In this document: in pieces, positions 53,240 to 64,000 of the stretch
Layout of the letters: every line of letters begins with the position of its first letter
Position numbering within the stretch: position 1 is the stretch's first letter
NCBI RefSeq assembly: GCF_009914755.1
Contig: NC_060940.1
Direction: 5' to 3' (one strand)
DNA: 64,000 nt
Source of the DNA: the human T2T-CHM13v2.0 reference genome, Homo sapiens
Notes under the pieces: generated by a model
What the model was told of the DNA's origin: nothing
The model's database searches: none
What the model saw: only the letters and a program-made list of their open reading frames with translations
Made by a program: the position numbers and the translations under genes

Positions 53240-56200
53240 CTTGGCCAGGGCTGGGGGAGAGGAAAGAGGGGAGGGACTGAGAAGGAGGTGCCCCAGCTGG
53301 AGCCCCCAGACCCTACGGCAGCCCGGCCCTGCCCCCGTTGGGAATACAGCCAGTGGAGGCGGGAGCTTCTGCCTGGGCACGGACGGTCCTGGCCCAGTGG
53401 GTGAGGCCAAGGCCGAGGCTCAGGGGCTGCTACACTCTGGGCCGCACCAGGCACCCTGCACACCTGGAGTCGGGGAGTCCTGGTCCCCAAAGCTGGGGCC
53501 CCCACACCCGGCAGATGGTGGGGAAGCCGTTGTGGGACACAGAGGTCTCTGAGACAGCCCTCTAAACTCAGGAGCGGGTAGCCGCCCAAGGCCCCACCCA
53601 CTGTGGCTGGGCAGAGCCCTGGGGCGTGGTGGCTGGTCTGCTCCAGGGAAAGGCCCCCCAAGGCTGGCCTGGGGTGGGGGGCCCTGCACAGTGCACAGAG
53701 GCACCGTCTCAGCCAGGCCCAGAGAGCCTCTCGTCCGGAGCCCCCAGGGCAGGGCCTGCAGGGGCCTCGGGAGGCCACTCCTCTGCCTCCCCCAGACTAG
53801 GGAAGGATGGTCCCACCTTGGTGCCGAGGGGAAGCCAGAGCCAACCTGGGTCCCCCTGAGCAAGGTAGGCCCCCTCCCAACAGCAGCTGCCCCAACAAGC
53901 CTGGCCCCCCTGCCAGGTGGGCCTTGCCTACCCCACTCCCCTCACAGCCACATCTGGAGGCTTGGCCAGGAGTGTCTTCCGCTAGGGCAGGTGCACGGGT
54001 CGGGATCCTCAATATTCCCTGAAGATGGGCTCTGCTGGACAAAGATCTAGGCTGCCTCCTTCAGGAAGCCCTCTGGGATTGTAGCACAGGGCAAGGTCCT
54101 TCCTCCTGCAGTGGGTCATTCCAGGTGGGTGGAATGTCTCTGGCAGTTGAGACACCCTCTGCCTGCCTCCCCATGAGCTCAGCAGACCCTGACTCACCCC
54201 CTGGCCCCACTGGACACCACAAGAGCCCCCCTGGACTCCTCCGGCAGAGGGAGCCTGGCAGGAGTGGGTGTGTGCATGCACGGAGGCCTGCAGGAGCCCC
54301 CACGGAGTTCCCGGCCGTCCCAGCCCCTGGCCCTGCCTGGCAGACAATCAGGGCTGGATCATGCTCCGCTGGGGTTCAGGGGGAGCCCGACCTGCCCAGG
54401 GCGGCTGTGAAGACTCCCACAACCAGCCCCAGGCCCTGTGCTTCCTGTTACCGTCTCAGGGATGCTCCCTGCCTGGCCGGCCGTCTGTGTTACTGTCCCA
54501 GCAACCCAGCCGTCAAAGAGCCCTTTCATGCCCGCCTGGGCGCCCGTGGCTTCCTCTGGGCTGTCCAAGAGCAACAGGCCGAGAGGCCAGCTCCGCCGAG
54601 CCCTGGACAGGATCCTGGCAGGGCCCCTGTGTCCACTGCGAAGCCTGCCTCGCGGCCCCAGGGTCCTCCTGCCAGCCCCGTGCCCATGAGCGGGGCTGGG
54701 GCCCGGCGTCTTGGCCGGCTGGGTTGGGGGATGGTGCCGTGGGCACGCAGCTCTCCTCCATCGGGAAACCAAGCCTGCTGCCCGCCTGGGGTGCGGCGCC
54801 CTGAGGAGAAGCAGGCAGATGGAAGCTGTGGCTGGGCGGGCCCGGCGGGGGGGCTGTAGGCCGAGGCCCGTGTTCGGGGCCCAGACCAGGGCCTCCATGC
54901 TGCACGGGGCCCCCATGGCCACCAAGCCACCGGGTGACGCACAGCCCTCATGCTGCTGGCGGGGAAGCCAGGCTGGATGGAGCCCAGGAGCGCAGCCTCC
55001 CCAGGCTCCGTGGGGTCTCTTCATTCCCTCATGACACCCCTGGGGAGGCCCCGCACCAGCCCCGCCTCTCAGCGGATAAGGACTGGGCCGGACGACTCGC
55101 GGGAATGACTTCTAGGCCTCCCAGGCCTCAGCGGGCGGGGGCTCCATTCTCTGTGGGCCCCAGGCCAAGCCCACACAGCACCTTGGCCTTGTCCCGCTCC
55201 GACCCTGGGCCTCTGGACACGGACACGCGGCCATTCCCCACAGGTCCTTCCTCCACAAGCCGGCCCCTGTTGTGGGAGGTGCTGGACGTGGCAGGAGAAT
55301 TGTGGCGGCCTTGCCTGAAAGCAGGCTGTGGGCGGGGAGGGGCCCCGAGCTGGCTCAGTCCCCTCGGCAGATTTGTGTGCGACCTGGGGTCCCGCTCTCC
55401 CCGCAGCCCCTCAGCTTGGCCTGGCCCTCAGCACCCCCATGCTAAAGACCGAGGAGGAAAGGAGGACAGGAGGTGAGGGGAGACCAAGGGGTCCCCCCTG
55501 TGGGAGCTTCGTGTGCCAGGCTGCGGGCAACGGGCTGGGGAGGGCTGTGGTGGGGACCGCACCAGCTGTAGCCGGTTCCAGGCTCCCCCCTCCAGGTGGC
55601 CCTGGGCGGTGACAGCTCACCCTTGGCAGCGGCACCCACTAGGCCCAGCGGCCCCCTCTGGGGACAGCCATCTTCACCCTGTTGGCTGTGGTGACACAGA
55701 TGGGGTGTGAAGACCTGAGCGCCTGTGACTATGGCACCTGCATCCGACCGAGCCGGCTCAGCGTGGCTGTGCCCTGGGCGGCGAGAACACAGCTCTGCAG
55801 ATGTGTCCCAGTGGGACAGTGTGCTCCTGGGGCTTGCAGAGAAAGACGGGCGGACGCCCACACTCTGCTGTGCCCTGGGTCTGAGCCTCAGCCTCCCATG
55901 CCCGTGAAATGGGCACCCATGGAGCTCAGAAGTATCCAGAGCGTCCCTGAGGCCTAGACACAGGGAACCCTGTGCCCCTCAGTGCCCCCCGACGCCAGCA
56001 GAACTGCCCCCTAAAAAGAGAGGCATGTTCCTGACAGTCCCCCTTGAGGGCAGGTCCCAGAGCCTCCCCACGCACAGAGCAGGGTGGAGGGAGGCTGAGG
56101 GGTGGGTGAACGGCCCGGGAAGGGTGCCTTTGGGTCCCTTGGGTTCGGGTGGCCCGGGATGACCCGTCCTGGGGAGAGTCCGTCTGGGCAGGCGGCTGGC

Positions 56201-59200
56201 AGGGCCGATGCCTGAACTATGTGGCACAGAAGCTGCAGGCCAGGCCTGAGTGGGGTGGGCAGGGAGCGCGGGGGGTGACTCAGTGGGGCAGGACAGCATG
56301 TCTCCTGGACAGAAATAGCCCTGGCCAGGCATGACCGCGGCATTGCCGTGGCGACGGGGGAGCGGCTGCTGCCGGGTGCCCTGGGGCCCACCCCCCACAG
56401 ACACCCAGCAGCGTCCCAGGCGGGCCCCGGGAGGGCCGCCCCCTCTCCGTGCTGCGGGGCGCTTGTGCCAGTGAGGTGCGGGTGGAGGTGCCAGGCACTG
56501 GGGGAGGGGGCCTCAGCAAGACCCCCGACTCCACCCCTCTCTCCCAGCCTTCAGCTCCCTGCTGTACAGACTGGGGGCTCCTGGACGCCTGGGCTCACTC
56601 AGCCCCCGAGAGGAGTGGATGATCTTTCTAAAGGAAGGCGTTTGGGGTCCACCCAGAAAGTGGGGAGGGCTCCATCCCTGGGTTTCAGGATTTTACTACT
56701 AGACTGCGAAAGTCTGGGCCTCCTTTTTCAGCACAAGGCGGGCGGCCCCCGCGTGCCCTAGTCCAGTGGTCTGCCTGCACGTGGGGGAGTGGGGAGGTCA
56801 GGAAATTGGGGGCGGGGGTGTTGGCCCCTCTCCAGCCGGGGAGTCGCCCCCATTGCTGCAGCCATCAGCCTGGCCCTGACGTGGGAGCACAGTGGGCGCA
56901 GGGACCCCTGGGCTCAGTGTCCCCAGCTGTAAAGTGCACGTGAGGCCTGACATTGGAACCTGCCTTGTGCTCGGAACAGCGCCTGGCTCCGTGTTCCCAG
57001 GCTGGTGCCACCAGCCAGCCTCAGCGACTCCTTCCAGGCCCCCTCCCCCGTGCCCCAACCCTCGGCTTCTCATCAGCCACCCCCTCCCCGAGGGGACATG
57101 CCAGAGCGCTGCCTGGGCCTGGGCAATAATGAGGCCTGAGTGCGCGGCCGGCGCGGAGGGACCATTATCTCCCAAGGCTCTTAATGGCCACTGGCCGAGA
57201 GTACATGTGATGAGCCGCCACAGGAGGTGACAGCAGCCGGCAGCTCCCTGTGGGGCTGGAGCAGACACGGCACGGGGACCTCACCCCAAACCCACACCCA
57301 CGGAGGCTGGCACGGGGTCTGAGTTCCACCCAGAGCCCTGGATGCGGGATGGGGCAGTGCCAGGCCACCCCTCCTGCAGCTGCCACCCACCCACACCCTC
57401 CCCCTCCCTGGCCATGGTGTCCCAGGTGGCAGGGAGTGAAGCCCCCACCCAGGAGCCTCCCGTGGCTCAGGGGCCTTTGAGTTCACCAGCTTCTGCCTGG
57501 CTCCAGGCCCCCCCATGCCAGGGGGACTGCAGAGAGGCGGTTCCTCGTTCCCCCGGCAGGTCACTGCTCCAGACCGTCTGGTGCTCTTGAGCAGCTTTGA
57601 GGGGCTGCGTGCACAGGACATGAGCTGCCTGCAGCCCCCGGGTGAGGCTCCACGCTGGGTCCTCTTCTCTGTTCCTGGCTGCTCAGACCCAGTGGCAACA
57701 GCACCCAGGGTGAATTTTAATGGCCCCAAAGAATGAGAGTCGGGCCCTGGTTGTCGCCGTGGTGACCGGCGGCTCCTAACGAACAACATGGCTTCCGTGG
57801 TGACAGGAGGTGACATTTTCTCTGGAACATCCTGTGCTGGAGAGAAGGTTCTGGAAGCTCTCAGGCCCACCTTTCAGGGTCAGGGTCTGCCCCTCTGGGA
57901 GGGGCCAGGTGGGCAGAGGAATCGTTGCTGCCCGGCAGTGGGGCTCCGAGCTGGTGGGGGGCCCGGTCCGGTCAGCAATGAGCCTATCGCAGCACGGCCT
58001 CTCCCAAATCACAGCAGCTGCCCTGCTCCCTGGGCGGTCCCGGGGCTGCAGGAGAAAGGGCAGGAGGACCCATCCGTGCTAAGGCTTGGAGCTGAATCAC
58101 GTGGCAGGGCCTGGGCTTTCCCGGGCCTCGGCGTCCTGTCTGCAAAACGGGGATAAGTACCCTCTCTCCGGGGTCACCAGCATGGGCTGGGGCCTGGCCA
58201 CTGCCTACATGCAGCTCCCCCCACCACCAGACAGCAGGGGGGACCGCCTGAGTCCATCCCACCTGCTGGGGGTGCCCTCGCACGCCCCCGCCACACACAC
58301 CTCTTCCTCCCACAGGGCCCAGGGCTGAGGGAGAGGGGCTGCCTGGGCAGGCACCCGGGTGAGAGAGCCCAGAGACCTGAAGGGCTTGGCCTCAGTGAGC
58401 TCCAGATGAGGCGAGAGGCCCAGCCCTTGTACCTTGGCCTGTGCTGTGGAAGTCAGGCCCCCTCCTCCAGGAAGCCCTCCCTGCCCCACCTGCTCACACA
58501 CAGCCTCGCCCAGATTTCTCCCCGTGCAGGCTCCGCCCGCCAGGTGACCGTGCTGGCAGTCAGCACCGTCCCCTCCCCACAGCAAACAGCAGGAGACTTG
58601 GGGTGGCGTTTTTCCTCTCCAGCAGTGGCCTCTGCAGGGGGTGTCAGCAGGTGGGGGAGAGAGGTCCGGTAGCCCCACTTGAAAGGCGCCCCACTCTCCT
58701 CCCAGCGCCCCCCGCGCAGCATCTTCCACCTGCTGATCTCACCCAGCTCACAGGTGTCCCAGTGGGTGGTTGAGGCAGAGGGGCTTGTACCTGTTACCTC
58801 CCCGTCCCCTCCAGGCTGGTATAGGAGCCCTATGGGCCTGGGTCTTGGAGACGGCACCCCCACCTACATGCTCTCCGGGTGGGCCCCATCCTGGGGGGTG
58901 CGGGAGGGACCCCCTGCCGATCTGCCTGTCTAAGTCTGGGAGTCCTGGGGACAGTGGGGCTGCGGAAGGGGGCAGTCTGGGTGGGACCCACCTGGAGGAT
59001 CCTCCCAGCTGGTGCACCAGCAGTGGGAGGAGCTCCGGGCAGAGCGAGTGCCCAGTCTCAAAGGATATGAAGTTGAGGCTGGGGGCCTAGAGGTGCAGGG
59101 GGAGGAGGTGGGGAGGCGCGGGGGGAGGGGGCGGGGAGGTGCGGGGGGAGGGGGCGGGGAGGTGCAGGGGTCCCAAAGGATGTCCCAAGGCCCCAAGACT

Positions 59201-59518
59201 CTGGCGAAAGGACGGAGGAGCCAGCACTGGTGGGGGAGCGGGGAGGCGAGCAGGGAGCGGAGCCGGATGGCCAGGCTCTGGGCTGGACACGCCATCCGTG
59301 GCTGGGCTGTGCTGTGGAGCCCCAGCCCTCACCTGCTCTTGTCCTGCCCTCTGAGGCCCGGGGGCTCCTGCTCCTGGGCTCTGACACCAACCCTGTCATC
59401 CCACGGATGAGTCCGTGGGTAGAGCTGCCACACGGGGGACTGAGACTCCAGCCCAGACGGACAGTGAGGGGAAGCCCCGCCCTGGCGCACACGCCCCGTG
59501 TGGAAAGCTAACGTGCTC

Positions 59519-59524
59519 TTTATT
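59519..59524 (-). terminator. PolyA signal of the TEKT4-like pseudogene
   Basis: Minus-strand AATAAA ~50 nt downstream of the ancestral stop. Confidence 0.75.
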
Positions 59525-59574
59525 TGGGAGACGGGACAGAAAACGCAGGACGGCGCCTGCACGGTGCCAGATAC

Positions 59575-59789
59575 TCACTGGCAGCCAGGCGCAGCTGCAG
59601 GACCGTGGGGTAGCGGCGTGGTGGCCATGCACGCCTGGCGGTCGACATAGAGGCTGTTGGTCTTGACGGCGATGTTTTTCTCCAGGCTCCTGCACGTACT
59701 CCAGGTTGCCCAGCGACTGCTCCACTTCTAGAAGCTTCTCCCGCAGCACCACCAGGGACGCATGCAGCCCCTCCACCTCATTCCCCAGC
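59575..59789 (-). pseudogene. TEKT4-like exon 6 (terminal) remnant
   Basis: ccctcAG|, then LGNEVEGLHASLVVLREKLLEVEQSLGNLEYVQ / SLEKNIAVKTNSLYVDRQACMA / RYPTVLQL / GCQ* (TGA 59577-59575). Matches the tektin-4 C-terminus ...RYPTILQLAGYQ*. Confidence 0.93.
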
Positions 59790-59949
59790 CTGAGGGTGCG
59801 GGGCATGAGTGGGGCTGCAGAAGGGAGCAGCAGGCACCTTCCAGTCTGGGAGGGACAGGACCCAAGGCTCACAGGCTGGGACTGGGGCAGCAGGAGGTCC
59901 TGGCAAGACCCCGTGAAGGATCCCTAAGGGAAGTCCACCAAAAAAAGCC

Positions 59950-59973
59950 CCGGTCTGTGATTTTCCGCAGCGT
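59950..59973 (-). pseudogene. TEKT4-like exon 5, 5' stub only
   Basis: ctgcctgcAG|, then TLRKITDR versus TLREITDQ. The rest, including the tektin RPNxELCRD signature, is not found and is presumably deleted. Confidence 0.7.
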
Positions 59974-60662
59974 CTGCAGGCAGCACAGTGCCTGTGGGCC
60001 TACACCTGGGGCAAGCAGGGTGCTGGCGTCCCCGTGCCCCGGTGTGTGGGCCGGGCCAGGCCAGCGCTGTTCTCCTTCACCAGCTCGGTCACCGGAACCC
60101 CAGCCAGAGGCACCCAGCCCCTGGGGCTGTGTCGAGGGCGGCTCTGTCCAGGGCCCAGGGGAGGTGCAGATGAAGGACCGTCGTTCATGGCCACCCAGCC
60201 TTCCCGGGGCACCCAGAGGGGTCCGGAGAGTCAGCACAGCCTGTTGCCCCGCAAGCTCCAGCCCCAGAGCCCCCAGCCCCCAAGACCCCAGCCCTGCTCA
60301 AGGACTCAGGGGACTCAGGCAGCCGAGGCCACGCTGAGACCCTAGTCAGAGCCCTGTGGCTGGGCCAGGATGGCTGGGGACAACCACGGTGGGTGGCCCA
60401 TGCTCCCTAAACCTCCTCCTGCCCCATCCTCCCCCACACCCCATGCCCAGCTGCTCAGTCGAGGGTGGAACACCTGCCAGCCATGCCCAATGTCACCTGG
60501 TTTCACATCCTTGGAAGGGGAGCCCAGAGAGGTGGGGCCTCTGCTTCTGGAGTCCCTCGGGGTGGGCAGCCAGGGGACGGGAGGTGCTGGGGGCTCAGGC
60601 CAGGTTGTGAGGGGGCAGAGTGGCGGCCGGCCTCAGGGGTCTGGGAGTTTAGGGCGCCCCAC

Positions 60663-60790
60663 CTGGAGCAGGCAATGCTGCACCTGGTGCCACATGACCT
60701 CTAGGTGAAGCCGCAGGCCCAGACACTGTCGCACAGGACGCAGTCACGGCACCGCCCAGGTCCTCCTGCCAGAAGCTGGCTCCTGGCCCC
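60663..60790 (-). pseudogene. TEKT4-like exon 4 remnant with internal deletions
   Basis: ASFWQEDLGGA / DCVLCDS..LRLH / LEVMWHQVQHCLLQ|GTGGGG versus AKFTQDNLCRA / DCILRDTSEDLRLQ / LEDARYKLHHHLHK. Acceptor not recognisable. Confidence 0.72.
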
Positions 60791-61650
60791 CGGCACCCCC
60801 AGGCCTCGAAACCCCGCGTCCCGCCCACGACCCCGCCCTGCGCCCCTCGCAGACCCACGCACCCCTTGTGCCTTCCTTGACTCCGTGGCCCCGGTGGTCC
60901 TTTGCCTCCCACAGCCCCCCACCGCCCACCCTTGCGCCCTCATGCCCTGCCTCCCTGTGGTATCCAAACCCCCCACGGTCCCCACGCTGCAGCCGCCCCC
61001 AGCGCCCCGCCTTCCCGCAGCCCCCCTCACCTCCCACAGCCCCCACCTCCCTCCACAGACCCCCGCAGCACTCACCGCCCCCCAGACGCCCTCCCCCAGC
61101 CCCCCTCACCTCCCACAGCCCCCACCTCCCTCCACAGACCCCCGCAGCACTCACCGCCCCCCAGACGCCCTCCCCCAGCCCCTGCCGCCCCCCTACAGGC
61201 CCTCCTAGTCTCCGCACCCCCCCCCCCGGCCCCCCTCCCGGCTCCCTCCCCGGCCCCGAGTTGGCGACGCTGCCGTGGGCGGTGGGCGCTCGCCCTCTGC
61301 CGGCCGCGCGCGGAAATGCGGTCTCGCCGTTGCCTGGGACTGACCCCGCCCCGCCCCGTCCTGCTCCGGGCAGCCCCGCGGGTGAGCTGGGTGCGCGCTG
61401 GGTGCTTGGGGTCTGGCTCGCTCTCCCATCCCCGGGCAGACAGCTGCACGGGTGGCCTCGTGGTCCATGGCCTCCGGCTGGGCCGGGGAAAGCCGTTTCG
61501 CGGAGCACGCCCGGCGGGTAAGGTGAGACCACAGCCAGGGCCGGGGCGGGGCAGGCAGGCGGGGGCCACCTCTCCTGGCAGGCGGTGGACGGGGGCCCTG
61601 CGCCTCGTGCTCTGGCTGGGAGCGCGCAGAGCTCCTCCATGCTGTGGGCG
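60700..61650. promoter_or_regulatory. CpG island inside intron 3 of the TEKT4-like pseudogene
   Basis: Dense CpGs at 61200-61560, GC boxes (CCCCGCCCCGCCCC ~61344) and GCGGAAAT. Confidence 0.6.
61018..61180. repeat. 79-bp tandem duplication
   Basis: cagccccctcacctcccacagcccccacctccctccacagaccccgcagcactcaccgccccccagacgccctcccc at 61018 and 61097. Confidence 0.9.
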
Positions 61651-61700
61651 CCACATTGTCCGACCAGCCCCGACTTCAGGTCTTCTTGTGCAGGCTCAGC
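61570..61700 (-). pseudogene. TEKT4-like exon 3 remnant
   Basis: AG|, then LSLHKKT*SRGWSDNV / AHSMEELC / SQST / STACQE|GT versus LNREHKETCEMDWSDKMEAYNIDETC...SQST...STTFQES. Stop at 61678. Confidence 0.85.
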
Positions 61701-62028
61701 CTGGCGTTGGGGGGCAGTGGTGGGGTCCCCTCCCCACCGCGGGCTGGACCCGAGTCCTGCTTCAGGAGGCAGCTCCGAGCCTGTCCCGGGAGGCCCCTGT
61801 TAGCAGAGCCCGGGAGCACGGCCAGGCTGGGAGGCTGCAGGTCAGGGGCGGGGCTGGTCTCTAGCCCCTCAGGCCCCCAGGCTGGGCCTTCGGAACCTGC
61901 GCCACCCAGCCCTTCGCTCTGCTGTGACCTGGGGCAGCCCCAGCTGTTGTCCATGTCCTGCCTCAGGGCCAGCCGGGGGTGAGGGTCAGGGGCCATCCCC
62001 TGGGCAGCCCTCAGGTTGCAGGACCCTC

Positions 62029-62098
62029 TGGATCTGTTTCCGGCTTGCACGGTGGGCCTTTCCAGCAGCTCCGGAATGCTCCCGATGAGCTCAGCTTC
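62029..62098 (-). pseudogene. TEKT4-like exon 2 remnant
   Basis: Acceptor ctcctcatccAG|, then EAELIGSIPELLERPTVQA..QI versus TEKT4 EAELIRNIQELLKRTIMQAVSQIR. Donor degenerate. Confidence 0.88.
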
Positions 62099-63295
62099 CT
62101 GGATGAGGAGGCGCCCCTGAGCCCCAGACCCCGGAACCTGCCAAGGGTCCCAGGAGGCCCGGAGGCTGCAGGCCTTGGTCAGCACTAGCTTACTCGGGAG
62201 GAGCAGAGTGTGGGGCCTGAGTCCTGGCTGGGTGTCCGGGCCAGGCCCCACTTGTTCGCCCTCAGGCCTTTCCCCTGGAAAGTGGCACACAAGCCCAGCT
62301 CCCTCCTCGGTTTATTCCGGGCTTTTGGATGTTCTTGGTGGGTTGGAAGTGGGGTGCTTTCCTCCAGGGGCCTCTCCGGGCTGCTGGGAGGGTCCCCTCA
62401 TGGTAGTTCCCACGCCCCAGGCTTTGGGGGTCATACCTGCCGTTCCCCGTGGTTCACCTCCCTGTTCCTGCACTGGGCAGGCAGGGCGAGCGAGGGCTGG
62501 GCCCGGGGTCTCTGGGCTCAGGGCGGAGGGGTTAGCACGGGAACCACAGGAGTTCTTGAACCACTGAGGGGGTGCAGAGGAGGGGCCTGGGGAGGGGAAG
62601 GAAAGGGGAAGGGAAGGCCTGGGGAGGAAGGAGGGATGCGAGGTCCTGAGCTCGGGGGTGCAGCAAGGGAACCCTGAGGCTCCTGCACCAGCTGCCCCCA
62701 CCCACATATTTTGCTCATAGACCTAACAGTGCGTTCACAGGGAGGCCCCAGGCTCTGAGAGGTGGCAGAATTCTCCAGAGCGAGCACTGGGGCCAGGATT
62801 GGTAACCCCCTCACCCTACGGGGCTGCTTCACGGACAGGTCGTGCTGGATTCGGAAGGGACAGAGCGTTCGGAGGAGAGGGCACTGGGGGTGCAAATCTT
62901 TGAGGTCAGGGCTCCATACAGGATGAATGGGTACCAGTGGCCCCCAGCGCACTCTTCCTGTCCACACCTGCAGCACTGACCTGGGTTCCCAGCTCGGGAG
63001 CAGTTGTCCCAGCAAGAGATGCCTTTGGGGAGGTGCCCTGTGGCTCAGCCCCGGGAGCTCAGGGCTGAATGTGCCTGGACTCAAGGGGGCAGGAGGAGGG
63101 GAGGGGCCCAGAGGAGACACAGCTGCTTGCAAGCCAGGTGCCCCTTGGGGCAAAACCAGCTTCTGTGGTTAAGGGGCCAGATTTCGGGACTCAAGGGTCT
63201 TGTGTGCCTGTAGCAGCCACGTAGCTTGTCCACATGAACGGCCAGGCTGCTCCTCTCCGTGGCTGCACGTCCTGGCCACCCCGAGGCCGCAGCAC

Positions 63296-63810
63296 TTTCA
63301 GCAGCTCCGTCTCCACGTAGTCGCCCACGAGGTAAGGGTGCCAGCATTGCTCGTGGTACTGCAGGTTGTTGGTGGCGATGGAGAAGGGCACGGTCATGGT
63401 GTCCGAGGCATGACACAGCTGCGGCTCCGGGGCCAGCAGCAGGCGGGTCTCAGCGGCGGTGCTACCACCTCCCACTCAGGCTCCAACTTCCAGCCGCGCG
63501 TGTCCTACGGCTGCCGCCCACCCTGTGTGTGTGGAGTCCCTTTGTGTGCACTGTGCCGCGGCCTCGGTCTCCGCTGCCCACTGCTGGCTCTCATGCTGCT
63601 GCTATGCCAACGGTTCGAAGGTGATGGTGGCCGGCGTCATGGTTCTGGAGCCACTTGTCCAGCAGGTGCTAGGCCACTGGGAGCCAGCGGTGGCCAGGCT
63701 GGAGGACGTGCAGGCACCTGTGTTTCAGGCCACGTCGCACAGCTTTGGGGGACAACTGGAATGGTCTGTGGGGCCGGCTGCTTGGTCAGGAGCGTGTCCA
63801 TCTGTGCCAT
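63296..63810 (-). pseudogene. TEKT4-like exon 1 remnant
   Basis: Starts gacaccATGG. Blocks: MAQMDTLLTKQPAPQTI / CDVA*NTGACTSSSLATAG / *HLLDKWLQN / *QQHESQQWAAETEAAAQCTQRDSTHT / *DTRGWKLE / AAETRLLLA...VPFSIATNNLQYHEQCWHPYLVGDYVETELLK|GT. Stops at 63727, 63671, 63604 and 63507. Confidence 0.93.
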
Positions 63811-63909
63811 GGTGTCCACCAGGGCCGGGGGAGTGAGGGGTGGGGTCAGCCCAGCCAGGTCAGTGGGGAAGCTCCAGCCACTCAGTCCCAGAGCAGGATG
63901 CGGCTCCCA

Positions 63910-63921
63910 GTTGCCTGGTAC
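63910..63921. promoter_or_regulatory. Degenerate RFX X-box upstream of the TEKT4-like ATG
   Basis: GTTGCCTGGTAC lies ~100 bp upstream of the pseudo-ATG. X-boxes are typical of ciliary gene promoters. Confidence 0.4.
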
Positions 63922-64000
63922 ACACCGACGGCCTCCATTACTGGGCACCAGGGATCCCCCCGAAGTGGCTGAGAGAGGCGGCATTCAGGGTGGGCAGAGC

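What the first reader, a model, noticed from the sequence alone, without database searches (positions are those of the whole stretch)
59519..63921. Cryptic dead tektin-4 gene at the apparent ancestral locus
Seen in the sequence: no long ORF, but frame-switched minus-strand translation gives six collinear blocks matching tektin-4 from start to stop (63810-63296, 62098-62029, 61700-61570, ~60790-60663, 59973-59950, 59789-59575). Many AG/GT sites survive, along with a strong Kozak ATG and AATAAA. There are at least five premature stops, many frameshifts, and most of exon 5 (with the RPNxELCRD signature) is lost. Recalled: mouse Tekt4 lies between Sstr5 and Cacna1h, while functional human TEKT4 is at chr2q11 with pseudogene copies elsewhere. 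Inference: this is the parental copy, which died after duplicative transposition, so the gene relocated. I do not know whether this relic is already annotated.
Basis: partly seen in the sequence, partly recalled or inferred. Interest (0 to 1): 0.9.

Follow-up and report, generated by a model that had tools for sequence, protein, structure and literature searches.

The report
Dead parental tektin-4 gene relic
This stretch of human chromosome 16 is the decayed remains of the original tektin-4 gene, still in the place where cattle and mice keep their working copy, while the working human copy is an old duplicate next to the centromere of chromosome 2.

Summary
Window 63810-59519 (minus strand) holds an intron-bearing, heavily broken copy of TEKT4. 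All six exons lie in order. It has the ATG in a GACACCATGG context, the terminal TGA and an aligned AATAAA. Seven of 10 splice dinucleotides survive. There are five premature stops and many frameshifts. A deletion of about 0.8 kb removes most of exon 5 with the RPNMELCRD signature.

The similarity covers more than the exons. A 10.6 kb block (window 55820 to 66424) runs collinear with a 12.1 kb block around functional TEKT4 on chromosome 2. Identity is 79% over ungapped noncoding sites.

Cattle and mouse papers place TEKT4 beside SSTR5/C1QTNF8, so the chromosome 16 site is ancestral and the chromosome 2 gene is the transposed daughter.

A protein tree puts the relic inside Euarchontoglires, near primates and outside crown anthropoid TEKT4, but the date is loose. 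dN/dS of 0.58-0.74 suggests the parent decayed early.

This is a clean case of a known process. RefSeq does not annotate it, and I found no paper on it in the library searched. Interest is moderate.

The parts
55820..64000 (-). Part inside the window of the block paralogous to the TEKT4 locus on chromosome 2. The block continues to window coordinate 66424, beyond the window's end.
   Evidence: Twelve collinear BLASTN pieces link window 55820-66424 to C2 95387706-95375633. Outside the block only Alu-sized matches appear.
63296..63810 (-). Relic of exon 1. The ATG at 63810-63808 sits in GACACCATGG. Four premature stops and at least six frameshifting indels.
   Evidence: tblastn E 4e-23 with human TEKT4. 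Horse residues 1-18 match at 15 of 18. 359 of 484 ungapped bases are identical to the chromosome 2 exon. The donor GT is kept.
62029..62098 (-). Relic of exon 2. The acceptor AG is kept. The donor GT has changed to GA at 62028-62027. One 1-base deletion.
   Evidence: 56 of 70 bases identical. tblastn E 0.037.
61570..61700 (-). Relic of exon 3. Acceptor AG and donor GT are kept. Premature TGA at 61678-61676. Four frameshifting deletions.
   Evidence: 101 of 131 bases identical. Lesions. P0002 tblastn hit at 61717-61559.
60663..60895 (-). Relic of exon 4. Recognisable from about 60790 to 60663; the first part aligns poorly. The donor GT is kept.
   Evidence: Local alignment is 58% identical with gaps, 138 of 195 ungapped. 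P0002 tblastn hits at 60789-60654.
59949..59973 (-). Stub of exon 5: the first 25 of 155 bases, with the acceptor AG kept.
   Evidence: 21 of 25 bases identical.
59925..59948 (-). Deletion junction. Here 24 bases stand in place of about 811 bases of the chromosome 2 gene: the last 130 bases of exon 5, the exon 5 donor and most of intron 5.
   Evidence: The exon 5 alignment ends at 59949, which corresponds to L009 6641. The next collinear piece starts at 59924, which corresponds to C2 95382952, i.e. L009 7453. RPNMELCRD is absent from the relic.
59575..59789 (-). Relic of exon 6. The acceptor AG and the terminal TGA (59577-59575) are kept. Three frameshifting indels.
   Evidence: 171 of 212 bases identical. 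Three tblastn pieces in three frames, joint E 8e-12. One fragment gives a Pfam Tektin hit at profile positions 355-377, 20 bits.
59519..59524 (-). AATAAA polyadenylation signal, aligned with the one in the chromosome 2 gene.

Best explanation
Window 59519-63810 (minus strand; T2T chr16 about 1,113,519-1,117,810) is the non-processed, long-dead remnant of the original mammalian TEKT4 gene. It lies in its ancestral position between C1QTNF8 and CACNA1H.

A DNA segment of at least 10.6 kb was copied into what is now the duplication mosaic beside the chromosome 2 centromere. The segment carried the gene, about 2.6 kb of 5' flank and about 3.7 kb of 3' flank. The daughter copy kept the function. The parent drifted neutrally from early on and picked up stops, frameshifts, a lost splice donor and a deletion of about 0.8 kb that removed the tektin signature. 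The chromosome 2 copy was later copied again, at 91-93% identity, to the acrocentric short arms and Y.

Shown here: the anatomy, the paralogy and the lesions. Taken from papers: the ancestral position. Inferred: the direction, the order of events and the date. The date is most likely within primates and before the crown anthropoids.
For: Identity as tektin-4:
- A PDB sequence search with one exon 1 fragment found 5 sequences at E<=1. The best four are tektin-4-type chains of 435-447 residues, led by 7ung_D0 at 2.6e-11.
- tblastn scored E 4e-23.
- In the tree the relic sits among mammalian TEKT4.

A DNA-level duplicate rather than a retrocopy:
- All six exons are in order, with introns. Seven of 10 splice dinucleotides are kept.
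- Twelve collinear pieces cover window 55820-66424 and C2 95387706-95375633.
- Noncoding identity is 79.1% over 6697 ungapped sites, K2P 0.249.

Dead:
- Five premature stops and more than 20 frameshifting indels in the guided alignment.
- The exon 5 deletion and loss of RPNMELCRD.
- The whole-genome Pfam Tektin scan listed 53 matches and missed this locus.

Ancestral position:
- The cattle order on BTA25 is SOX8, SSTR5, C1QTNF8, TEKT4, CACNA1H (PMC12071107 tables; PMC7500205 passages).
- Mouse Tekt4 lies 19 kb from Sstr5 (PMC3008721 passages).

The chromosome 2 site is derived:
- Neither flank of the chromosome 2 block matches chromosome 16.
- Both flanks are 87-95% identical to segments on chromosomes 9, 20, 7, 8, the acrocentrics and Y.

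Early death of the parent:
- Exons are no better conserved than noncoding DNA (76.6% against 79.1%).
- Pairwise dN/dS is 0.74 over 331 codons, or 0.58 over 280 codons without exon 4.

Age:
- The relic and P0002 form a clade (100/100). That clade sits inside Euarchontoglires (96/92), with lemurs and anthropoids (93/88), and outside crown anthropoid TEKT4 (93/100).
- Of 12 columns that changed on the anthropoid stem, the relic has the ancestral state in 5, the derived state in 3, another state in 2 and no data in 2.
- P0002, a prediction from another genome, carries the same exon 5 truncation.
Against: - Pfam hits on single fragments are below the curated cut-off (18.9 and 20 bits against 34.3), and 9 of the 11 fragments scanned gave no Tektin hit.
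- Exons 3-5 were not detected with the human protein.
- The first part of exon 4 aligns at only about chance-like quality.
- The date is poorly fixed. The AU test does not reject a clade of relic plus catarrhine TEKT4 (p 0.246).
- The raw divergence (K2P 0.25, dS 0.37-0.42) would, at genome-average rates as I recall them, point to an age older than primates. A faster local rate has to be assumed.
- The two AU rejections (p 0.0135 each) are modest. They involve a very long branch, and the groups were named after the tree was seen.
- The synteny evidence rests on two species read from papers, not on alignments made here.
- No other primate genome could be examined.
Confidence: 0.87

Rival explanations
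1. Same nature but a much older history. The duplication predates the primate-rodent split; rodents and cattle then lost the chromosome 2-type copy and primates lost the chromosome 16-type copy (reciprocal loss).
For: The divergence is high: K2P 0.249 in noncoding DNA and dS 0.37-0.42. That is more than I would expect for a primate-age duplicate at average rates (rates recalled, not computed here).
Against: The tree puts the relic with primates (93/88) inside Euarchontoglires (96/92). AU tests disfavour the relic outside Euarchontoglires (p 0.0135) and the relic with rodents (p 0.0135). The relic shares 3 of 10 scorable anthropoid-stem states. The region is 62-78% G+C, and CpG-context changes make up 24-39% of transitions, so a raised local rate is plausible.
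Confidence: 0.06
2. Same nature but a recent history. The duplication happened within catarrhines and the parent then decayed unusually fast.
For: The AU test does not reject relic plus catarrhine TEKT4 (p 0.246).
Against: The relic is about 21% diverged from the chromosome 2 copy in noncoding DNA, whereas the acrocentric and Y copies are only 7-9% diverged from it. The free tree puts the relic outside a crown anthropoid clade that includes Cebus (93/100). Five of 10 scorable anthropoid-stem columns keep the ancestral state.
Confidence: 0.05
3. The chromosome 16 copy is the derived duplicate and chromosome 2 is the ancestral home.
For: None from sequence alone. A two-copy comparison is symmetric.
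Against: Cattle and mouse TEKT4 lie next to SSTR5/C1QTNF8. The chromosome 2 block is bounded on both sides by unrelated duplicated segments shared with many pericentromeric and acrocentric sites. The chromosome 16 block sits in unique sequence between conserved neighbours.
Confidence: 0.02
4. The relic is dead as a protein gene but has a present role, as a non-coding transcript or a regulatory element. This could hold alongside the main explanation.
For: The hub's RefSeq table lists a silencer at 61216-61435, inside relic intron 3. The promoter-side flank, the ATG context and the AATAAA survive.
Against: The exons show no sequence constraint. No RefSeq transcript is listed in the interval (hub table). 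Expression could not be tested with these tools.
Confidence: 0.1

Closest known systems
Human TEKT4 (chromosome 2, G000:C2:95378107-95383297; protein P0003, 435 aa)
   Same: The six-exon structure, exon order, stop-codon position and polyadenylation signal are the same. Introns and flanks are paralogous over 10.6-12.1 kb.
   Different: TEKT4 is intact; joining its exons gives P0003 exactly. The relic has five stops, many frameshifts, a lost exon 2 donor and no exon 5 signature. The relic keeps the longer N-terminus of the 447-residue form (15 of 18 residues match horse). Human TEKT4 lacks those 12 codons.
TEKT4-like copies on the short arms of chromosomes 13, 14, 15, 21, 22 and on Y (TEKT4P2 is the chr21 name used in PMC8997349)
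   Same: Non-processed copies of the same gene that keep their introns.
   Different: The two copies fetched (chr21 and Y) are young daughters of the chromosome 2 copy, 91-93% identical over about 9.8 kb. The chr13, 14, 15 and 22 copies were not aligned here. All lie in duplication-rich DNA. The relic is about 79% identical, sits in unique DNA at the ancestral locus, and is the parent rather than a daughter.
Gene relocation by duplicative transposition followed by loss of the parent copy. One mammalian example is the sex-chromosome-to-autosome transposition in PMC4446799 (search listing and start of abstract only).
   Same: A gene persists only at a new site after a copy was made and the original was lost.
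   Different: Here the carcass of the parent can still be read exon by exon. The move was DNA-mediated, autosome to autosome, into a pericentromeric mosaic.
Unitary pseudogenes (definition recalled)
   Same: A broken gene at the position where other mammals have a working one.
   Different: A functional paralogue exists elsewhere in the genome, so the function was not lost and the label does not apply.

Membership tests
Tektin family / TEKT4 lineage | Significant match to the Pfam Tektin profile PF03148 | tested here: inconclusive
   Two of 11 fragments hit Tektin, at 18.9 and 20 bits, below the 34.3-bit cut-off. The genome-wide scan missed the locus. P0002, a prediction from the orthologous relic, carries a precomputed PF03148 label.
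Tektin family / TEKT4 lineage | Closer to tektin-4 than to tektins 1, 2, 3 or 5 | tested here: met
   The best four of 5 PDB matches are tektin-4-type chains. Exon-by-exon DNA alignment to TEKT4 is 71-84% ungapped. The relic sits among TEKT4 orthologues in the tree. No other tektin paralogue was put in the tree.
Tektin family / TEKT4 lineage | Signature nonapeptide RPNxELCRD | tested here: not met
   It lies at residues 351-359 of P0003. No remnant was found in the three minus-strand frames of window 59001-64000, because the region is deleted.
Tektin family / TEKT4 lineage | Open reading frame able to give a full protein | tested here: not met
   Five premature stops and many frameshifts. There is no long ORF.
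Non-processed (duplicated) pseudogene, parental copy | Introns and flanking DNA shared with the functional paralogue | tested here: met
   Twelve collinear pieces over 10.6 kb, including all introns and both flanks.
Non-processed (duplicated) pseudogene, parental copy | Lies at the position the gene occupies in outgroup species | tested here: met
   Read from papers only: the cattle order SOX8, SSTR5, C1QTNF8, TEKT4, CACNA1H and mouse Tekt4 19 kb from Sstr5. No outgroup genome was aligned here.
Processed pseudogene (retrocopy) | Intronless copy of the mRNA with a poly(A) tract | tested here: not met
   Introns are present and alignable to the TEKT4 introns.
Segmental duplication as catalogued (at least 1 kb at 90% identity or more; definition recalled) | At least 90% identity between the copies | tested here: not met
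   79.1% over ungapped noncoding sites, and 64-76% with gaps. By this recalled threshold the chr16-chr2 pair would fall outside such catalogues. The chr2-chr21 and chr2-Y pairs fetched here do qualify at 91-93%.
Unitary pseudogene | No functional paralogue in the same genome | tested here: not met
   An intact TEKT4 lies on chromosome 2.

The most novel reading that the evidence does not exclude
TEKT4 would be a fully traceable, so far undescribed case in which a flagellar and ciliary structural gene changed chromosomes in the primate lineage. The parent at 16p13.3 was copied as a block of about 11 kb into a pericentromeric duplication mosaic. The parent died almost at once (dN/dS about 0.6-0.7). 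Its carcass can still be read exon by exon tens of millions of years later, at an identity too low for duplication catalogues, and it is absent from RefSeq. The only working human TEKT4 would then live in, and depend on, one of the least stable kinds of genomic neighbourhood.
Probability: 0.4. Interest if true: 0.55.

Novelty: new member of a known kind. Interest (0 to 1): 0.42.

Why it matters
The finding explains why human TEKT4 breaks the otherwise conserved gene order of 16p13.3. It also identifies which human TEKT4 copy is the parent and which are daughters.

It gives a dated-in-principle example of gene relocation by DNA duplication followed by loss of the parent. The lesions (five stops, a GT-to-GA donor change, the exon 5 deletion) can be mapped on the primate tree to time both events.

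In practice, the interval deserves a pseudogene annotation. The old predicted protein gs85 (P0001), which stitches relic pieces to neighbouring frames, should be treated as an artefact. Beyond that it is ordinary genome decay, with no sign of a new mechanism.

Tried and rejected
- The Pfam scan of 11 stop-to-stop fragments gave only two weak Tektin hits and one irrelevant SPATA3 hit at E 0.058. It was too insensitive for this degree of decay.
- The genome-wide Pfam Tektin scan found 53 matches but not the relic.
- tblastn with human, macaque, Cebus, Otolemur and horse TEKT4 found exons 1, 2 and 6 only.
- The first protein-database search, with a 94-residue fragment, found only two proteins, P0001 and P0002. 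A later search with P0002 found no further relic-derived predictions among the 120 proteins listed of 140 hits. The relic therefore could not be traced to named species.
- I did not use the protein-tree branch lengths for dating. The relic stem is 1.17-1.29 changes per site, which a protein model inflates for a neutrally drifting sequence.
- Callithrix P0027 was dropped from the careful tree and the AU tests because one search flagged it as a long, odd row. It was kept in the alignment used for the diagnostic-column count.
- The processed-pseudogene, different-tektin and chr16-as-daughter readings were rejected (see the rival explanations).
- Literature: TEKT4+16p13.3 gave 2 papers from their titles on CNV and karyotyping, not opened. 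TEKT4P1/P2/P3 gave 24 papers, none containing TEKT4P1. TEKT4+pericentromeric gave 2. tektin+16p13.3+pseudogene gave 1, which is about TEKT5. TEKT4+segmental duplication gave 3. TEKT4+synten gave 3. Judged from titles, abstract starts or the passages read, none describes this relic or a relocation of TEKT4.
- One search was badly framed: it did not force TEKT4, and it told me nothing about TEKT4.

Full report
**What is there.** Stop-to-stop frames on the minus strand of window 59.4-64 kb contain short stretches that read like tektin-4, but there is no long ORF. One 94-residue fragment (63475-63191) was searched against all PDB chain sequences and matched five sequences at E<=1. The best four are tektin-4-type chains of 435-447 residues (7ung_D0 2.6e-11; 8i7o_D2 5.4e-10; 9cpc_3T 5.5e-10; 7rro_D0 3e-08). 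The fifth is a 462-residue tektin at E 0.27. Pfam was much less sensitive. Two of 11 fragments hit Tektin PF03148, at 18.9 and 20 bits, below the 34.3-bit cut-off.

tblastn with human TEKT4 (P0003) against the whole window gave five collinear minus-strand hits:
- exon 1 at E 4e-23;
- exon 2 at E 0.037;
- exon 6 in three different frames, with a joint E of 8e-12.

It also gave one spurious plus-strand hit at E 0.74. Horse TEKT4 additionally matched the first 18 residues from the ATG at 63810 (15 of 18 identical).

**Comparison with the working gene.** A six-frame Pfam scan of the window's own genome found 53 tektin matches. Intact TEKT4 lies at C2:95378236-95383267. TEKT4-like copies lie on C13, C14, C15, C21, C22 and C24 (Y). 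The other tektin genes are on C1, C16 (10.7 Mb) and C17. The relic itself was not found.

I fetched the chromosome 2 locus (L009) and defined its six coding exons. Joined, they translate exactly to P0003. Each exon was then aligned to the relic, with these results:

| Exon | Relic coordinates | Identical bases (ungapped) | Splice sites and lesions |
|---|---|---|---|
| 1 | 63801-63296 | 359 of 484 | Donor GT kept |
| 2 | 62098-62029 | 56 of 70 | Acceptor AG kept; donor GT changed to GA |
| 3 | 61700-61570 | 101 of 131 | Acceptor AG and donor GT kept |
| 4 | ends at 60663 | 138 of 195 | First part poorly aligned, acceptor not alignable; donor GT kept |
| 5 | 59973-59949 | 21 of 25 | Acceptor AG kept; only the first 25 of 155 bases remain |
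| 6 | 59789-59575 | 171 of 212 | Acceptor AG kept; terminal TGA in place |

About 811 bases of the chromosome 2 gene are represented by 24 bases in the relic. The missing part is the rest of exon 5, its donor and most of intron 5. That stretch encodes RPNMELCRD (residues 351-359 of P0003), and nothing of it is left.

Read in the TEKT4-guided frame, the relic has five premature stops (63727-25, 63671-69, 63604-02, 63507-05, 61678-76) and more than 20 frameshifting indels. The indels in exon 4 are uncertain because that alignment is poor. The ATG context GACACCATGG and an AATAAA at 59524-19, aligned with the chromosome 2 signal, survive.

**Not only exons.** BLASTN between chromosome 16 (the window plus 10 kb beyond it, L014) and 40 kb of chromosome 2 gave 12 collinear pieces. 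They run from window 55820 to 66424 against C2 95387706 to 95375633, which is 10.6 kb against 12.1 kb. Everything else was Alu-sized repeats.
- Over 6697 ungapped noncoding sites, identity is 79.1% (transitions 12.3%, transversions 8.6%, K2P 0.249).
- Over 898 exon sites, identity is 76.6% (K2P 0.288).

The copy was therefore made at the DNA level and carried introns, about 2.6 kb of 5' flank and about 3.7 kb of 3' flank. It stops about 1.2 kb short of the C1QTNF8 start at 54623 (hub table).

**Which copy is the parent.** Sequence alone cannot say; gene order in outgroups can.
- Tables in a cattle GWAS paper list, on BTA25, SOX8, then SSTR5, C1QTNF8 and TEKT4 within 31 kb of one marker, then CACNA1H (PMC12071107, passages and tables). 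A second cattle paper maps one BTA25 marker to C1QTNF8, SOX8, SSTR5 and TEKT4 (PMC7500205, passages).
- A mouse paper states that a Tekt4 coding probe lies 19 kb from an Sstr5 probe on the same 84 kb fragment (PMC3008721, passages).

This is the order of the human window with the relic in TEKT4's place.

Conversely, the DNA on both sides of the chromosome 2 block has no chromosome 16 match. It is 87-95% identical to segments on chromosomes 9, 20, 7, 8, the acrocentric short arms and Y. The chr21 and Y TEKT4 copies that were fetched are 91-93% identical to the chromosome 2 copy over about 9.8 kb. The history that fits is as follows: the parent sat at 16p13.3, a daughter was inserted into a pericentromeric mosaic on chromosome 2, and the daughter was later spread further.

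**When, and how soon the parent died.** The exons are no better conserved than the introns. Nei-Gojobori dN/dS between the relic and TEKT4 is 0.74 over 331 codons, or 0.58 over 280 codons without exon 4. A value near 0.6 is what I would expect if one lineage were neutral throughout and the other constrained. That expectation is my own reasoning, not a fitted model.

The decay therefore predates that split.

In a careful maximum-likelihood tree of 37 rows, with Callithrix dropped as a flagged long row, the placement was as follows:
- the relic and P0002 form a clade (100/100);
- that clade sits inside Euarchontoglires (96/92);
- within that, it sits in a group with lemurs and anthropoids (93/88);
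- it sits outside crown anthropoid TEKT4 (93/100).

AU tests disfavour the relic outside Euarchontoglires (p 0.0135) and the relic with rodents (p 0.0135). They do not reject the relic with catarrhines (p 0.246). These groups were named after the tree was seen, and the relic branch is very long.

Of 12 alignment columns that changed on the anthropoid stem, the relic shows the ancestral state in 5, the derived state in 3, another state in 2 and no data in 2.

The raw divergence (K2P 0.25; dS 0.37-0.42) is high for a primate-age event at the genome-average rates I recall. The region is 62-78% G+C, and CpG-context changes are 24-39% of transitions, so a faster local rate is plausible. My best estimate is a duplication within primates, before the crown anthropoids. 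The brackets are wide.

**Known or new.** The hub's RefSeq table lists no gene in the interval. A human database protein named gs85 (P0001, 639 aa) strings relic pieces together with neighbouring frames. An old gene prediction therefore touched this DNA without recognising what it was. I recall the source as the 2001 annotation of terminal 16p but did not see it.

Six targeted full-text searches returned no paper that, judged from titles, abstract starts or the passages read, describes a TEKT4 relic at 16p13.3 or a relocation of TEKT4. TEKT4P1 occurs in none of the 24 papers holding a TEKT4P name. I could not consult GENCODE, Ensembl or HGNC tracks or subscription journals, so prior annotation cannot be excluded.

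The process itself, duplicative transposition followed by loss of the parent, is well known. This is a clean new example of it, not a new kind of thing.

**Verdict.** Confidence in the main reading is 0.87, novelty is 'new member of a known kind', and interest is about 0.4.

Noticed in passing
window 61008-61202: A 79-base tandem repeat of 2.2-2.5 copies with 92-97% matches. It lies in a 78% G+C, strongly C-skewed part of relic intron 3, just beside the RefSeq 'silencer' at 61216-61435. This part of the intron does not align with chromosome 2.
   Followed up: no
P0001 (database protein named gs85, human, 639 aa): This is a predicted protein that joins relic exon pieces (1, 2, 6) to unrelated neighbouring frames. 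It looks like an obsolete gene-prediction artefact still kept in protein databases.
   Followed up: partly
L009 2608-2650 versus window 63810-63750: Human TEKT4 (435 aa) lacks 12 N-terminal codons that the 447-residue forms of Old World monkeys and other mammals have. The relic keeps the long form (MAQMDTLLTKQPAPQTIP matches horse at 15 of 18). The human, bonobo and gorilla entries are 435-444 aa.
   Followed up: partly
G000:C2:95365500-95375499 and 95387800-95395400: Functional TEKT4 on chromosome 2 is flanked by duplicated segments 87-95% identical to sites on chromosomes 9 (several), 20, 7, 8, the acrocentric short arms and Y. There is also a 76-78% match at C2:110.08 Mb.
   Followed up: partly
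G000:C13:23153151-23154934 and G000:C2:130752605-130753295: Further partial matches (64-71%) to the 3' flank of the relic block, away from any TEKT4 exon hits. They may be fragments of the same duplicated segment.
   Followed up: no
window 59090-59170: A G-rich 23-base tandem repeat (3.5 copies, 89% matches) about 0.4 kb downstream of the relic's AATAAA. Similar G-rich repeats elsewhere in the genome gave the many short 75-85% hits.
   Followed up: no
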